A stretch of DNA of 64,000 bases from the IMG/VR virus record IMGVR_UViG_3300046004_001116, positions 1 to 64,000 of that record; one strand, 5' to 3'. The position numbers and the translations under genes are program-made. Below, piece after piece: positions 30,047 to 42,512 of this stretch. Origin of the DNA: a virus. Under the pieces are notes generated by a model. That model was given only the letters and a program-made list of their open reading frames with translations. It made no database searches and was not told the DNA's origin. Within the stretch, counting starts at the first letter, position 1, and each line of letters starts with the position of its first letter.

Positions 30047-30079
30047 AAGCTCCAGAATTAATTTTCTGGAGCTTTTTTT
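30047..30079 (+). terminator. Attenuator terminator 1
   Basis: aagctccagaa-ttaatt-ttctggagcttttttt. Confidence 0.85.
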
Positions 30080-34729: not shown

Positions 34730-34762
34730 AAAGCTCCAGAATTAATTTTCTGGAGCTTTTTT
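34730..34762 (+). terminator. Attenuator terminator 2 (identical hairpin to terminator 1)
   Basis: aaagctccagaa-ttaatt-ttctggagctttttt. Confidence 0.85.
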
Positions 34763-36260: not shown

Positions 36261-36347
36261 GGAGAGGTGCCAGAGTGGTCGATTGGACCGGTCTTGAAAA
36301 CCGGAGAGCGTGAAAGCGCTCCGTGGGTTCGAATCCCACCCTCTCTT
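36261..36347 (+). tRNA. trnS: tRNA-Ser(TGA)
   Basis: Class II cloverleaf. Confidence 0.92.
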
Positions 36348-36350
36348 CAA

Positions 36351-36498
36351 AATTAGAAGCGGTACATTGAGATACTTCAATATCCAAAACTGCCATTTGT
36401 TGGTTCGAGTCCAACCTGAGGTGTTAATAGCACCTCGGTGGTGAAATGGTAAACACAGCAGTCCCAAAACAAGACGCTCATGTAAACATTCTCTAATT
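36351..36498 (+). ncRNA. Second YrlA-like Y RNA with permuted tRNA-like domain
   Basis: TTAGAAGCGG-TACATTGAG / CTCATGTA-AACATTCTCTAA stem; T arm, loop-closed acceptor, D arm. Confidence 0.8.
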
Positions 36499-36503
36499 GA
36501 ATT

Positions 36504-36577
36504 GCTGGCGACGCATGAATGGTGGTGCACCGGATTTGTAACCCGGACTAGAGTCGGTTCGATCCCGACCGTCAGCT
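36504..36577 (+). tRNA. trnT: tRNA-Thr(TGT)
   Basis: Cloverleaf. Confidence 0.85.
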
Positions 36578-36583
36578 CAAAAT

Positions 36584-36654
36584 GGCCCTATGACCGAGCG
36601 GTTAGGTGCAGGTCTGCAAAATCTGTTAGGTTGGTTCGACTCCAACTGGTGCCT
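36584..36654 (+). tRNA. trnC: tRNA-Cys(GCA)
   Basis: Cloverleaf, U73. Confidence 0.9.
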
Positions 36655-36657
36655 CGA

Positions 36658-36852
36658 GAATAATCAGAGGACTCATCGCTGGAAACAGAGGAAGTTCGCG
36701 ACAACTAAACCTAACATGGGAGATGTAAAAATCGTTCGTACCACGGAAGTTGCAAGTTAAACAGTTTGAGGGTGTCGGTTTCCCTATGAGAACGGGTTAA
36801 TGCAAAGTCAAATGATGGGATAAAACAGAAACGCGGCTACGCTCAATTATTC
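36658..36852 (+). ncRNA. rnpB: Minimal RNase P RNA
   Basis: GAGGAAGTTCGCG (CR-I) and AACAGAAACGCGGCTA (CR-V) forming P4; P1 GAATAAT/ATTATTC. Confidence 0.8.
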
Positions 36853-36857
36853 AAATT

Positions 36858-36939
36858 GCCCAGGTGGAGAAATTGGTAGACTCGCCAGCCTAAGGAGCTG
36901 GTGCCGCAAGGCGTGAGGGTTCGAGTCCCTCCTTGGGTA
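36858..36939 (+). tRNA. trnL: tRNA-Leu(AAG)
   Basis: Class II cloverleaf, loop CTAAGGA. Confidence 0.88.
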
Positions 36940-36951
36940 CAAAATTAAAAT

Positions 36952-37041
36952 GGGCCGATTGGTGTAACTGGGAATGAATACCAGCTTGGGTTAACACGAA
37001 CCTGTAGGTTCGGCTGAGAGTTCGAATCTCTCATCGGTCCC
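36952..37041 (+). ncRNA. Atypical tRNA-like gene with 8-bp acceptor and no clear anticodon
   Basis: GGGCCGAT/ATCGGTCC; T arm gagagTTCGAATctctc. Confidence 0.55.
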
Positions 37042-37157
37042 GGTATCTCCCAAGGGAGAAAACTCTGGTTGGTGGTCTGACCTTATAGACCGCAATAAGA
37101 CTGTCAAGGTAGGACGTCAGTTATAGAGAGGTGAGCCATACCTATTCCTCTCAACAT

Positions 37158-37232
37158 GGTGATTGTAGCTCAGTTGGTTAGAGCGCTGGTTTGTGGTACC
37201 AGAGGTCGCGGGTTCGACCCCCGTCATTCACC
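37158..37232 (+). tRNA. trnH: tRNA-His(GTG)
   Basis: G-1/C73, loop TTGTGGT. Confidence 0.92.
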
Positions 37233-37861: not shown

Positions 37862-38314
37862 ATGGTATTTAGAAAGCTCGCAGATAGGCAGGAAGTTGAC
37901 TTATTACCATACGCACATGATTTCCTAACGGAACATCCAGAGCATAAACTCTACGTGGGTACGGATAGTCAAAACATCGGAAAAACTACAGTTTATGCAA
38001 CAGTTATTGTGTTTCATAATAACAACGGTGGTGGTCACGTTTTATATTCTAAGGTAACAGTACCTAGAATCGCGGACAGATGGACCAGATTGTGGAAAGA
38101 AGTAGAAATGTCAGTTCAAGCAGCTGACCTTTTAAAAGAAGGAGATTTTCATCCGGTAGATTTTATTGACTTGGATTTAAACCCAGACCCAAGATACAAA
38201 TCGAATATGGTCTTAAGATCAGCTGTTGGTTATGTTGAGAGTTTTGGTTACAAAGCAAGAGTAAAACCGAATGCGACTATTGCATCTTGTGTTGCAGATA
38301 GTATCTTCCGTTAA
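37862..38314 (+). CDS. RNase H-like YkuK (DUF458) family protein
   Basis: YVGTDSQ, RLWKEV..S, KPNA.IAS.VAD. Confidence 0.8.
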   Translation: MVFRKLADRQEVDLLPYAHDFLTEHPEHKLYVGTDSQNIGKTTVYATVIVFHNNNGGGHVLYSKVTVPRIADRWTRLWKEVEMSVQAADLLKEGDFHPVDFIDLDLNPDPRYKSNMVLRSAVGYVESFGYKARVKPNATIASCVADSIFR

Positions 38315-38407
38315 GAACTATTATATAAGAAGTGAATATATAATCTATAATACTTTGGGGTGTAAAAGCCCCAAATATTTTTACTAACTAAAATAAAACA
38401 AAAAAAC

Positions 38408-40889: not shown

Positions 40890-42512
40890 ATGAGCAGATT
40901 AACACCTTATTCAGACAAAAGAACAGCTACATCTAATGAAGCTTATTCTACCGTAGTGGAAAACTACATGGGCGGAAACTCTTTTAACGTTTCTCCGCTT
41001 GCAACTCTTAAAATTGTAACCGCAAGTTCAATCTTTGGAGAACCAAGATATTACCAAGACGGTATAGGATCTTCTAAAACTATTAAGAATCATTCAACTC
41101 TTATGGAGTATGATATCTTTAGTGATGGGGTGAAAGATAACCGAAGTGTAGTGGATGTATTTACTTCTGCAATTGACAATGCATTAGACTTTGACTTCAA
41201 AGCAACATTGGATTTTGCATTAGAACTACGTACAGAATACTTCATGCGTCTTAACCCAGCGGTTATCTTTGTTCGTGCTTCACAGCATCCAAACAGAGTT
41301 GCGTTTAATGAAGCTAATCCAGGCTACATGAAATCTATCGGAAAAGCAATCGCTTTAAGACCTGATGACGTAACAAACCAATTGGATTACTACATGTTCT
41401 TAAACGGTTCTAAGAAAGGTTTGCCTTCTTTACTTAAAAGAACTTGGGCTGATACTCTTGAGTCATTCTCTAGATATCAATTAAACAAATATAAAGGTAA
41501 AAGTCTTATTGACCTTGTAAGAATCTCACACGCAAGTAACGATGATATTACTGAGTTAATGAAGACAGGAACAATTAAAGTTACATCATCTGAACAAACT
41601 TGGGAAAGTTTAAAGAGTGCTGGAAAAACTTGGGTTGAGATTCTTGACACAATTAAAGTTCCTCACATGGCTCTTTTAAGAAACCTTCGTGGAATCTTTA
41701 CAGAAATCAATGATGCGGCTATTGCGGCTAAAGTTCTTGAGCAATTGGAATCTGGTGTTTTATACGGAAAGCAATTTCCTTTTAGATACTGGAGTGCTTT
41801 TAAAGCAATTCAATCCGCGGACGTTAATCACTCTGGATTAATTAAAGACAGTCTTGAAAAATGTATGGACCTTGCGGTTGCTAACATGCCAAAACTTGAC
41901 GGTCGAGTAATGTCTCTTTGTGATAACTCAGGTTCTGCTTGGGGATCTCTTAATTCAGAATACGGTTCTGTTACAGTGGCAGAGATTGCCAACTTGTCAG
42001 CAATCATTACTGCACAACAATCTGCGGAAGGTTATGTAGGAGTATTTGGTGACAGACTTAAAACTCGTTCTATCTCTAAAAGAAATGGTCTTTTAACTCA
42101 GTTAAATGAATCAAACACTGAAGGAAGAGGAATTGGTGGAGGAACTGAAAACGGAATTTGGTTATTCTGGGATAAAGCAATCAAGGATAAACAACACTGG
42201 GACACCGTGTTTATCTATTCTGATATGCAAGCAGGTCACGGAAACCTTTACGGCACAAACGAAAGAGACTATGCAGAGTTTGCGCACAAACGTTCTAACC
42301 GATACATTGATGTACTTGCATTAGTGGAAAAATATAGAAAAACTGTTAATCCAAAAGTTAACGTTTTCTCAGTACAAGTTGCTGGGTACGATAATACAGT
42401 ACTTCCTGAAAACTTATACCGTGGTGCAATCTTAGCAGGGTGGACGGGTAAAGAATGTCACTATGCCGACGCTGTTATAAAAGCTTGGAATGAAATAGAG
42501 AATCAAAAATAA
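40890..42512 (+). CDS. rsr: Ro60/TROVE-domain RNA-binding protein with vWA domain
   Basis: MALLRNLR, QFPFRY, DNSGSA (MIDAS), IYSDMQ. Confidence 0.9.
   Translation: MSRLTPYSDKRTATSNEAYSTVVENYMGGNSFNVSPLATLKIVTASSIFGEPRYYQDGIGSSKTIKNHSTLMEYDIFSDGVKDNRSVVDVFTSAIDNALDFDFKATLDFALELRTEYFMRLNPAVIFVRASQHPNRVAFNEANPGYMKSIGKAIALRPDDVTNQLDYYMFLNGSKKGLPSLLKRTWADTLESFSRYQLNKYKGKSLIDLVRISHASNDDITELMKTGTIKVTSSEQTWESLKSAGKTWVEILDTIKVPHMALLRNLRGIFTEINDAAIAAKVLEQLESGVLYGKQFPFRYWSAFKAIQSADVNHSGLIKDSLEKCMDLAVANMPKLDGRVMSLCDNSGSAWGSLNSEYGSVTVAEIANLSAIITAQQSAEGYVGVFGDRLKTRSISKRNGLLTQLNESNTEGRGIGGGTENGIWLFWDKAIKDKQHWDTVFIYSDMQAGHGNLYGTNERDYAEFAHKRSNRYIDVLALVEKYRKTVNPKVNVFSVQVAGYDNTVLPENLYRGAILAGWTGKECHYADAVIKAWNEIENQK

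What the first reader, a model, noticed from the sequence alone, without database searches (positions are those of the whole stretch)
36658..36852. ~195-nt RNase P RNA, apparently catalytic domain only
Seen: CR-I GAGGAAGTTCGCG and CR-V ACAGAAACGCGGCTA with TCGCG/CGCGG P4 pairing, separated by only ~140 nt. Established: bacterial RNase P RNAs are ~350-400 nt and use the S-domain to recognise the T/D elbow. Inference: an S-domain-less phage ribozyme that could process the many non-canonical tRNA-like stems here, itself under attenuator 2.
Basis: partly seen in the sequence, partly recalled or inferred. Interest (0 to 1): 0.75.

Follow-up and report, generated by a model that had tools for sequence, protein, structure and literature searches.

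The report
Phage-encoded miniature RNase P RNA
A freshwater T4-like phage carries, inside its block of about 30 tRNA genes, a 195-base cut-down gene for RNase P RNA (the ribozyme that trims new tRNAs) that keeps the catalytic half and almost none of the half that reads the tRNA's shape, and I found no paper describing such viral RNAs.

Summary
Window 36658-36852 (+), exactly filling the gap between tRNA-Cys and tRNA-Leu, matches an RNase P model end to end with the specificity (S) domain deleted (RF00373, 26.4 bits, E 1.5e-5; far below gathering). I collected 44 distinct relatives (193-281 nt) from phage contigs. On a structure-blind alignment of 40, a class-A-like catalytic domain (P1-P6, P15-P17, bulged-U P4, P6 pseudoknot) is 86.7% paired against 63.4% in shuffles, and 50 of 59 pairs change on both sides. 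CR-I, CR-V, the J15/2 strand and the L15 GGU are invariant or nearly so. The S-domain is a 36-nt stub.

The same 15-mer in cellular genomes gave 0 family members in 120 loci, against 43 of 118 in viral contigs. Two of 15 large phage records that carry the RNA also encode an RnpA protein and no full-size RNase P RNA. A cultured phage, Stenotrophomonas DLP6, has an unannotated copy.

Best reading: a working phage RNase P RNA that uses an RnpA-type protein. Catalysis is inferred, not shown. Eight literature searches found no description. This scan has noted the same family before on other phage DNA. New variant of a known kind.

The parts
36658..36852 (+). Whole miniature RNase P RNA (195 nt, first to last P1 pair)
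   Evidence: RF00373 match at 36659-36851, model 1-288/288, 26.4 bits, E 1.5e-5. The P1 ends pair and covary in all 10 P1 pairs.
36658..36669 (+). P1 5' strand (36658-36664 and 36667-36669), pairing with 36842-36844 and 36846-36852
   Evidence: helix 1: 10 of 10 pairs change on both sides and 75.8% of cells are paired. duplexfold found a P1 in nearly all of the 44 relatives.
36670..36678 (+). P2 5' strand, pairing with 36813-36821
   Evidence: helix 2: 6 of 7 pairs change on both sides and 87.9% are paired. RNAalifold predicts it on its own and adds 36677/36814 and 36678/36813.
36679..36688 (+). P3, a 3-bp hairpin with a GAAA loop (longer in relatives)
   Evidence: helix 3: 4 of 5 pairs change on both sides and 87.0% are paired. 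Also predicted by RNAalifold.
36688..36700 (+). CR-I, GAGGAAGUUCGCG. P4 5' strand is 36693, 36694 and 36696-36700, with U36695 bulged.
   Evidence: G31, A32, G33, A35, A36, U39, C40 invariant. helix 4: 100% paired and 4 of 7 pairs change on both sides.
36702..36706 (+). P5 5' strand, pairing with 36748-36752
   Evidence: helix 5: 4 of 5 pairs change on both sides. Also predicted by RNAalifold.
36707..36711 (+). P6 pseudoknot 5' strand, pairing with the L17 loop at 36777-36781
   Evidence: helix 6: 5 of 5 pairs change on both sides and 81.5% are paired.
36712..36747 (+). Remnant of the specificity domain: P7-like helix 36715-36719/36741-36745, hairpin 36722-36733, conserved strand CGUUCGUAC 36733-36741
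   Evidence: helices 7 and 8 (4 of 5 and 2 of 3 pairs change on both sides). A83 and C84 are invariant. cmscan deletes the model's S-domain positions here.
36752..36801 (+). J5/15 (GCAA), P15 (36756-36759/36798-36801), P16 (36764-36767/36790-36793), P17 (36769-36772/36782-36785) and the L15 3' side GGGU (36794-36797)
   Evidence: helices 9-11: 96.9%, 97.4% and 83.8% paired, with 4/4, 3/4 and 4/4 pairs changing on both sides. G95, C96, A97, A98 and G138, G139, U140 are invariant.
36802..36812 (+). J15/2 strand GCAAAGUCAAA (CR-IV-like). There is no P18 in this copy.
   Evidence: G145, C146, A149, G150 and A155 are invariant. The strand aligns to the AGAU.AAUG strand of RF00373 and RF00010. Relatives carry a P18-like insert here.
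36822..36839 (+). J2/4 and CR-V, AAAACAGAAACGCGGCUA. P4 3' strand is 36832-36838.
   Evidence: C169, A170, A173, G178, G179, U181, A182 invariant. helix 4.
36584..36655 (+). tRNA-Cys(GCA), ending 3 nt before the RNA. No CCA is encoded.
36858..36940 (+). tRNA-Leu(AAG), starting 5 nt after the RNA, so the RNA is in effect this tRNA's 5' leader
34730..34759 (+).
   Evidence: A near-identical hairpin lies at 30047-30074.
38354..38375 (+). Terminator-like hairpin downstream of the tRNA array

Best explanation
Window 36658-36852 (+) encodes a miniature, bacterial class-A-like RNase P RNA.

Shown here: it has the full set of catalytic-domain helices (P1, P2, P3, bulged-U P4, P5, the P6 pseudoknot, P15-P16-P17) and the conserved strands CR-I, J5/15 GCAA, L15 GGU, J15/2 and CR-V. 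All are maintained by selection across a diverse family that I found only in phage DNA. The specificity domain is reduced to a 36-nt stub.

Inferred: (1) The RNA is transcribed with the tRNA array. Its ends are made by the enzymes that trim the flanking tRNAs, with the 3' end set by an RNase P cut at +1 of tRNA-Leu. (2) It binds an RnpA-type protein through the conserved J15/2, J2/4 and P4 region. In this phage that is probably the host's protein; in at least two huge-phage relatives a phage rnpA is available. (3) It cleaves 5' leaders from pre-tRNAs using acceptor-stem, -1/+1, 3'-end (L15 GGU) and leader-protein contacts, without reading the T/D elbow. This would add tRNA-processing capacity for a phage that expresses about 30 tRNAs and may relax substrate requirements.
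For: Model match: RF00373 aligns end to end with only the S-domain deleted (26.4 bits, E 1.5e-5; E 3.4e-7).

Family: the nhmmer profile hit 51 of 227 loci, giving 44 distinct full-length copies of 193-281 nt.

Covariation on a MAFFT alignment of 40 copies: 86.7% of cells are paired, against 63.4% in shuffles (0 of 500 reach it) and at most 42.5% when partners are slid. 50 of 59 pairs change on both sides. P4 is 100% paired with 4 of 7 compensatory pairs, and P6 has 5 of 5. RNAalifold independently predicts P2, P3, P5, P7, P15 and P16, with 22 of 26 pairs compensatory.

Invariant core strands are listed.

Phage-only in my samples: 43 of 118 viral-contig loci with the CR-I 15-mer are members, against 0 of 120 cellular-genome loci.

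tRNA linkage: 24 of 44 loci have a same-strand tRNA within 300 nt.

Protein partner: RnpA (PF00825, 49-50 bits, cut-off 22.3, RNR motif) is encoded in 2 of 15 large phage records that carry the RNA. Those two records have no class A, class B or archaeal RNase P RNA at E<=1.

Cultured example: the DLP6 copy scores 54.7 bits on RF00010 over model 1-367, E 3.3e-17.

Literature: the E. coli C-domain alone is catalytically active, depends on a P6-like pairing and does not need P18 (abstract of PMC5839562). This matches what the family keeps (P6) and what it treats as optional (P18).

RNA-library contigs cover 36670-36940 and 36751-36984 with no mismatches.
Against: No activity data exist, and isolated C-domains cleave with reduced efficiency (PMC5839562 abstract).

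No Rfam gathering score is reached (26.4 against 84). RF00010 and RF02357 give no match on this record at E<=10. cmscan found no RNase P match at E<=1 on the two huge-phage relatives L001 and L002.

The MFE fold is no better than shuffles (z -0.5).

P4 is nearly invariant in my sample because most relatives were fished out with the CR-I 15-mer, so its compensatory changes rest on 1-4 sequences per pair. I drew the structure from this sequence and a first 3-way alignment, which favours it over the slid controls. The shuffle control ignores relatedness.

13 of 15 large records, and this record (only about 30% complete), lack rnpA. The host is unknown.

The RNA-library contigs could derive from DNA.

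This copy is slightly weaker than the consensus: an A.A mismatch in P2, A.C in the P7-like helix, A.A where most copies extend P4 by an A-U pair, and two changed bases in J15/2.
Confidence: 0.65

Rival explanations
1. Decoy or regulator. The RNA keeps the protein-binding and substrate-binding surfaces of RNase P RNA but does not cleave. It would soak up host RnpA or pre-tRNAs and so throttle or redirect host tRNA, tmRNA and 4.5S RNA maturation during takeover.
For: The S-domain is lost. 13 of 15 large records encode no protein of their own, so the RNA must compete for host RnpA. No activity is shown.
Against: Residues that matter for chemistry and substrate docking, rather than protein binding alone, are invariant or nearly so: the bulged-U P4, ACAGAA, J5/15 GCAA and L15 GGU. 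P6, which the C-domain needs for efficient cleavage (PMC5839562 abstract), covaries in 5 of 5 pairs. Two phages supply their own RnpA yet have no full-size RNase P RNA, which makes little sense for a sponge.
Confidence: 0.13
2. Cis-acting leader ribozyme. The RNA acts only on the tRNA fused to its own 3' end (here tRNA-Leu, 5 nt downstream), as a self-processing leader rather than a trans-acting enzyme.
For: In the window the RNA is literally the 5' leader of tRNA-Leu. 13 of 44 loci have a tRNA within 30 nt downstream.
Against: 31 of 44 loci have no tRNA within 30 nt downstream. 20 of 44 have none within 300 nt on either side, including the huge-phage copies that sit between protein genes.
Confidence: 0.07
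3. Decaying relic: a fragment of a host rnpB gene captured with tRNA genes and now functionless, or a chance resemblance.
For: Scores are far below Rfam gathering. The MFE z-score is -0.5.
Against: Mean column identity is only 42%, yet 86.7% of cells stay paired and 50 of 59 pairs show compensatory change. Copies occur in T4-like and in 200-735-kb phages. The motif pair is expected 0.00 times by chance.
Confidence: 0.03

Closest known systems
Bacterial class A RNase P RNA (Rfam RF00010, model of 367 positions; E. coli M1 RNA / rnpB)
   Same: Same catalytic-domain architecture: P1-P5, bulged-U P4, P6 pseudoknot, P15-P16-P17 with GGU on the 3' side of L15, the J18/2-like and J2/4 strands, CR-I and CR-V. 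The DLP6 copy aligns to RF00010 over positions 1-367. Two relatives' genomes encode the bacterial protein subunit RnpA.
   Different: About half the size (195 nt). The S-domain, with CR-II and CR-III, is replaced by a 36-nt stub. P18 is absent here. CR-I has one A fewer (GAGGAAGUU rather than the GAGGAAAGUC of the model consensus). A U.G pair next to the bulged U is invariant in 40 of 40 copies. It is encoded by phages and is below the gathering score (no RF00010 match on this record).
Type T RNase P RNA of Thermoproteaceae (Rfam RF02357; Lai et al. 2010, cited in PMC7191817)
   Same: [quoted passage not shown] PMC7191817 reports it as still active (passages seen).
   Different: Type T is archaeal, works with archaeal proteins, and is said to occur only in Thermoproteaceae. 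RF02357 gives no match here at E<=10. The phage RNA has bacterial class-A features. The size reduction is most likely independent (inference).
Engineered C-domain constructs of bacterial RNase P RNA (Eco CP RPR; Mao et al. 2018, PMC5839562)
   Same: The catalytic domain works without the S-domain, depends on a P6-type pairing, and P18 is dispensable (abstract). The phage family conserves P6 and carries P18 only in some members.
   Different: Those are laboratory deletions with reduced efficiency. This is a natural, selected gene family with its own conserved stub.
Phage T4 small stable RNAs rnaC and rnaD (species 1 and 2) in the T4 tRNA cluster
   Same: Phage-encoded stable RNAs of unknown function that sit directly beside tRNA genes. 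By eye, rnaD has a hairpin followed by a CR-I-like strand and a CR-V-like 3' end, and both are invariant in 6 T-even phages.
   Different: The family profile gives no match at E<=10, and no RNase P Rfam model matches at E<=10. rnaD is 119 nt and has no recognisable P15-P17. This is a lead only.

Membership tests
RNase P RNA (universal core) | Long-range P4 helix with a bulged U, formed by CR-I and CR-V | tested here: met
   Pairs 36693, 36694 and 36696-36700 with 36832-36838, U36695 bulged. 100% of cells are paired in 40 sequences and 4 of 7 pairs change on both sides.
RNase P RNA (universal core) | Conserved strands CR-I (GAGGAA...), CR-IV (J18/2, AGAU.AAUG-like) and CR-V (ACAGAA...). The CR names are recalled; positions come from the cmscan alignments. 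| tested here: met
   Invariant or >=90% conserved columns in A2. They align to the matching consensus strands of RF00373 and RF00010.
RNase P RNA (universal core) | P1-P2-P3 frame closing the molecule | tested here: met
   Helices 1-3: 10/10, 6/7 and 4/5 pairs change on both sides.
RNase P RNA (universal core) | Specificity domain with CR-II and CR-III (P8-P12 region) that reads the tRNA T/D elbow | tested here: not met
   Only 36 nt (36712-36747) lie between P6 and the P5 3' strand. cmscan deletes the corresponding model blocks.
RNase P RNA (universal core) | Score at or above an Rfam RNase P gathering threshold | tested here: not met
   RF00373 scores 26.4 against 84. RF00010 and RF02357 give no match at E<=10 on this record. 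Nothing appears at gathering. The DLP6 copy scores 54.7 against 100.
RNase P RNA (universal core) | Endonucleolytic removal of pre-tRNA 5' leaders | not testable with these tools
   Needs a cleavage assay.
Bacterial class A RNase P RNA | P6 pseudoknot between the strand after P5 and the L17 loop | tested here: met
   36707-36711 pairs with 36777-36781. 5 of 5 pairs change on both sides and 81.5% are paired.
Bacterial class A RNase P RNA | P15-P16-P17 arm with GGU on the 3' side of L15 (the 3'-CCA docking site; that role is recalled) | tested here: met
   Helices 9-11 are 84-97% paired. G138, G139 and U140 are invariant.
Bacterial class A RNase P RNA | P18 hairpin | tested here: not met
   Absent in the window copy. 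A hairpin-sized insert sits at this place in 17 of the 40 aligned relatives, by my reading of columns 265-328 of A2.
Bacterial RNase P holoenzyme | Partnership with the RnpA (C5) protein | tested here: inconclusive
   No PF00825 in this record, which is about 30% complete. It is present in 2 of 15 large records that carry the RNA. Binding was not tested.
Type T RNase P RNA (RF02357) | Match to the type T model; archaeal (Thermoproteaceae) context | tested here: not met
   No match at E<=10. The record is a T4-like phage with Gp23 capsid and prohead protease.

The most novel reading that the evidence does not exclude
Many large phages carry their own RNase P. The RNA is a natural, catalytically active, C-domain-only ribozyme, the smallest bacterial-type RNase P RNA. 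It is cut out of the phage's own tRNA transcript and pairs with host RnpA, or in some huge phages with a phage RnpA, which would make a fully viral holoenzyme. It ignores the tRNA elbow, and so takes over or widens tRNA and tRNA-like RNA processing during infection. The 50-year-old orphan T4 'species 2' RNA (rnaD) may be an even more reduced relative.
Probability: 0.35. Interest if true: 0.9.

Novelty: new variant of a known kind. Interest (0 to 1): 0.8.

Why it matters
RNase P RNA is one of the two universal ribozymes. As far as I could find, it has been treated as a strictly cellular or organellar gene.

A conserved phage family would be the first viral RNase P RNA. It would show that phages invest in tRNA maturation as well as in tRNAs. 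It would also be a natural experiment on how little RNA an RNase P needs.

It makes an old question directly testable: what does the S-domain contribute in vivo? The material is there: a cultured phage (DLP6) and dozens of natural sequence variants.

The co-occurrence of the RNA with a phage rnpA in huge phages hints at complete virus-encoded holoenzymes.

Compact, naturally optimised C-domain ribozymes could also serve RNase-P-based RNA-targeting tools.

Tried and rejected
Single-sequence MFE folding gave z -0.5. This is uninformative for a pseudoknotted RNA.

Rfam at gathering thresholds found only tRNAs. RF00010 and RF02357 gave nothing on the window's record at E<=10. cmscan at E<=1 on the huge-phage loci L001-L003 found no RNase P match, although L001 and L002 are clear family members by profile and covariation. 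L003 (a weak 32-nt BLAST hit) was not supported by the profile and I dropped it.

My first pair count used a wrongly nested bracket string, because P2 and P4 cross. I repeated it with separate brackets, and only one search is used.

I looked for a conserved neighbouring protein in 44 loci (+/-3 kb) and found none that is universal. The largest cluster (7 loci) looks like an HTH/HNH homing endonuclease. A PF04308 protein recurs in 5 loci.

BLAST of two GC-rich members (L105, L096) against GenBank phages found nothing.

T4 rnaC and rnaD gave no match to the profile or to any RNase P model.

A third huge phage with an rnpA homologue, LR756502.1, was searched with one member RNA by BLAST and gave nothing. 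That is uninformative.

Read laying: stretches of the element without cover in some RNA runs, and all depths, are not evidence either way, because all four runs are contigs.

I could not see supplementary tables. Those of Al-Shayeb 2020 and of the DLP6 paper might list rnpA or small RNAs.

Full report
**Setting.** The window comes from an 85,919-bp IMG/VR virus record that is linear and about 30% complete by CheckV. It encodes a T4-type major capsid protein (Gp23, 141 bits) and a prohead protease, so it is a T4-like phage. Near-identical DNA occurs in many lake-water metagenomes. Positions 30.7-37.8 kb hold about 32 tRNA genes, all on the + strand. The finding fills the gap between tRNA-Cys (ending at 36654/36655) and tRNA-Leu (starting at 36858).

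**Observation.** The joint pattern occurs once, with 0.00 expected by chance. At Rfam gathering thresholds only tRNAs are found. In E-value mode on 36300-37200, the archaeal RNase P model RF00373 aligns to 36659-36851 over model positions 1-288 of 288, at 26.4 bits and E 1.5e-5 (E 3.4e-7 in the one-genome search). The alignment keeps P1-P3, CR-I, P5, the P15 arm, the AGU.AAAU strand and CR-V, and deletes the specificity-domain blocks. RF00010 (class A) and RF02357 (type T) give no match on this record at E<=10. The single-sequence MFE is no better than shuffles (z -0.5).

**Relatives.** BLAST against GenBank phages found homologues in uncultured huge phages: LR756501/LR756503 (735 kb) and LR745206 (635 kb). 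In both, the homologue lies between protein genes with no tRNA nearby. Three were the seeds, 43 came from the 118 loci with the CR-I 15-mer, and 5 came from the second pattern. After removing 3 exact duplicates and 4 loci without the 3' motif, 44 distinct full-length copies of 193-281 nt remained, nearly all with a terminal P1 duplex.

None of them has more than a short profile match around the 15-mer itself. So in my samples the family occurs only in phage DNA.

A cultured phage also has it. Stenotrophomonas phage DLP6 (KU682439.2) carries an unannotated copy at 105774-106022, just upstream of tRNA-Arg. It matches RF00010 over positions 1-367 at 54.7 bits, E 3.3e-17, still below the 100-bit threshold.

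**Structure.** I aligned 40 copies with MAFFT (A2, mean column identity 42%). I left out L101 (cut by a contig end), L118 (almost identical to L020), and L035 and L005 (P1 unclear). I drew the structure from the window sequence and the first three-way alignment, then counted it on A2 with P4 and P6 written as pseudoknots.
- 86.7% of 2,315 cells form standard pairs, against 63.4% in shuffles (0 of 500 reach the observed value) and 33-42.5% when partners are slid by 1-3 columns.
- 50 of 59 pairs show changes on both sides.
- The covariation score is 0.585, against 0.179 in shuffles.
- By helix: P1 10/10 pairs compensatory; P2 6/7; P3 4/5; P4 4/7 with 100% pairing; P5 4/5; P6 pseudoknot 5/5; P7-like 4/5; stub hairpin 2/3; P15 4/4; P16 3/4; P17 4/4.
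- RNAalifold, which knows nothing of my drawing, predicts P2 (two pairs longer), P3, P5, P7, P15 and P16, with 22 of 26 pairs compensatory.

Caveats on these counts:
- Most relatives were fished out with the CR-I 15-mer, so P4 is nearly invariant by ascertainment. Its compensatory changes come from the few copies found otherwise (L002, L145, L168, L197, L186).
- The sequences are related, so the shuffle control is not a probability.
- The structure was derived partly from these sequences.

**Anatomy of the window copy** (position 1 = 36658):
- P1: 1-7/189-195 and 10-12/185-187.
- P2: 13-21/156-164.
- P3: 22-24/29-31, with a GAAA loop.
- CR-I: 31-43.
- P4: 36, 37 and 39-43 with 175-181, with U38 bulged.
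- P5: 45-49/91-95.
- P6: 50-54/120-124.
- Stub: 55-90, containing a P7-like helix (58-62/84-88), a 3-bp hairpin (65-76) and the conserved strand CGUUNGUAC.
- J5/15: GCAA.
- P15: 99-102/141-144. P16: 107-110/133-136. P17: 112-115/125-128.
- GGGU (137-140) on the 3' side of L15.
- J15/2 without P18, then J2/4 and CR-V (165-182).

The columns invariant in all 40 copies include GAG.AA..UC of CR-I, GCAA of J5/15, GGU of L15, GC..AG....AU of J15/2, and CA..A....GG.UA of CR-V. This is the architecture of a bacterial class-A catalytic domain. What is missing is the S-domain with CR-II and CR-III and, in this copy, P18. Other members carry a hairpin-sized insert at the P18 place. A family peculiarity is a U.G pair next to the bulged U in 40 of 40 copies.

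**Context and expression.** In 24 of 44 loci a tRNA gene lies within 300 nt, always on the same strand. 13 loci have one within 30 nt upstream and 13 within 30 nt downstream. 34 loci hold at least one tRNA. In the window the spacers are 3 nt and 5 nt, and neither flanking tRNA encodes CCA. The RNA is therefore in effect the 5' leader of tRNA-Leu, and its 3' end would be made by an RNase P cut (inference). Terminator-like hairpins lie at 34730-34759 and 38354-38375, with none predicted between them on the + strand. Contigs from RNA libraries of two studies cover 36670-36940 (X19) and 36751-36984 (X20) with no mismatches. A sediment metatranscriptome (X21, X22) holds a relative in which 36704-36801 is replaced by 106 other letters while both ends are kept. 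These are contigs and may derive from DNA, so this is only a weak hint of transcription.

**Protein partner.** No universally conserved neighbouring gene was found. PF00825 (RnpA) is absent from this fragmentary record. Among 15 large records that carry the RNA, two encode it:
- LR745206.1 has rnpA at 76444-76752 (115 aa, 49.2 bits), with the RNA near 502 kb.
- A 476-kb IMG/VR record has rnpA of 99 aa (50.0 bits), with the RNA near 352-355 kb.

Both proteins carry the RNR motif, both genes sit next to a ClpP-like gene, and the LR745206.1 protein aligns to a solved RNase P protein. Neither genome has a class A, class B or archaeal RNase P RNA at E<=1. The mini RNA is therefore the only RNase P-like RNA I can detect beside these phage rnpA genes. 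A third huge phage, LR756502.1, has a homologue 51% identical. One BLAST query did not find the RNA there, which proves nothing. The other 13 records, several of them 100% complete, have no rnpA, so most members would depend on the host protein (inference).

**Mechanism.** What is shown is a conserved, covarying, class-A-like catalytic domain encoded only in phages, usually in tRNA clusters and sometimes alongside a phage rnpA. The rest is inferred: release from the tRNA transcript, assembly with RnpA, and cleavage of pre-tRNA 5' leaders without elbow recognition. The inference is biochemically plausible. According to the abstract of Mao et al. 2018 (PMC5839562), the E. coli C-domain alone is active, though less efficient; it depends on a P6-like pairing and does not need P18. 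The family keeps P6 under strong selection and treats P18 as optional. Keeping the L15 GGU and J5/15 GCAA argues for substrate docking and catalysis rather than mere protein binding, so I rank the decoy model lower. The cis-only model is weakened by the 20 of 44 loci with no tRNA within 300 nt.

**Comparison and novelty.** The closest relatives by architecture are bacterial class A RNAs. The closest analogue in lifestyle is the archaeal type T RNA. A 2020 survey says type T occurs only in Thermoproteaceae, and that paper contains no mention of phage or virus (PMC7191817, passages).

None of my eight full-text searches turned up a phage- or virus-encoded RNase P RNA. The DLP6 genome paper has no occurrence of 'RNase P' (PMC5349666). 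The huge-phage paper has none of 'RNase P', 'ribonuclease P' or 'rnpA' in its main text (PMC7162821; supplements not visible). A 2024 review of RNase P uses 'phage-encoded' only for tRNAs (PMC11143913, passages). The library lacks most subscription journals, so I cannot exclude prior description.

Earlier notes of this same scan describe the same family on other phage DNA and also found no paper. I re-derived the evidence independently here. I add the rnpA co-occurrence, the cellular-genome control and the DLP6 copy, none of which is mentioned in the short note summaries returned.

**Verdict.** An active, RnpA-dependent enzyme is the best reading (about 0.65). It is a new variant of a known kind and of high interest.

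Noticed in passing
L356 1465-1812 (+) = LR745206.1 76408-76752; L355 1498-1797 (-) in a 476-kb IMG/VR record; LR756502.1 525156-525473: Huge uncultured phages encode an RnpA (RNase P protein) homologue with the RNR motif. In two of them it sits beside a ClpP-like gene. The same two genomes carry the mini RNase P RNA and no full-size one. The huge-phage paper's main text does not mention it.
   Followed up: partly
L348 2460-2708 = KU682439.2 105774-106022: The cultured Stenotrophomonas phage DLP6 has an unannotated member of the family (RF00010 54.7 bits) just upstream of tRNA-Arg(CCG). This offers a tractable system for experiments.
   Followed up: partly
L349 5054-5172 (-) = T4 NC_000866 71053-71171 (rnaD): T4 'species 2' RNA has a hairpin followed by a CR-I-like strand (UAAGUCGUCGGAC) and a CR-V-like 3' end (CACAGCAGAAACGGCG) that could form a bulged-U P4. 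Exactly these two ends are invariant in 6 T-even phages, while the middle varies. No profile or Rfam support, and no covariation available.
   Followed up: partly
window 30047-30074 and 34730-34759: Two nearly identical terminator-like hairpins (AAGCTCCAGAA...TTCTGGAGCTT followed by a T run), each ahead of a tRNA sub-array.
   Followed up: no
window 37862-38314 (+): A PF04308 'RNaseH_like' (YkuK-type) protein is encoded right after the tRNA array. Homologues lie within 3 kb of the mini RNase P RNA in 5 of 44 loci (L004, L010, L011, L081, L099).
   Followed up: partly
window 40890-42512 (+): A TROVE-domain (Ro60-like) protein lies 3 kb downstream of the tRNA array. Earlier notes of the scan report Y-RNA-like genes around it.
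   Followed up: no
window 36504-36577 (+): A tRNA-like gene is found by the Rfam tRNA model (38.8 bits) but not by ARAGORN. 36351-36500 is a further structured spacer, and it is absent from a relative seen in RNA-library contigs (joint 36350 to 36500).
   Followed up: no
window 36704-36801: In sediment metatranscriptome contigs (X21, X22) a relative keeps both ends of the RNA but has 106 different letters in place of the stub and P15-P17 part.
   Followed up: no
A2 columns 72/363 (window 36696/36836): The P4 pair next to the bulged U is U.G in 40 of 40 family members, where the class A and archaeal model consensus has C at the 5' position.
   Followed up: no
L186 3690-4433, L082 3782-4576 and five more loci: HTH/HNH homing-endonuclease-like ORFs recur within 3 kb of the RNA in 7 of 44 loci, as is usual for T4-like tRNA clusters.
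   Followed up: partly
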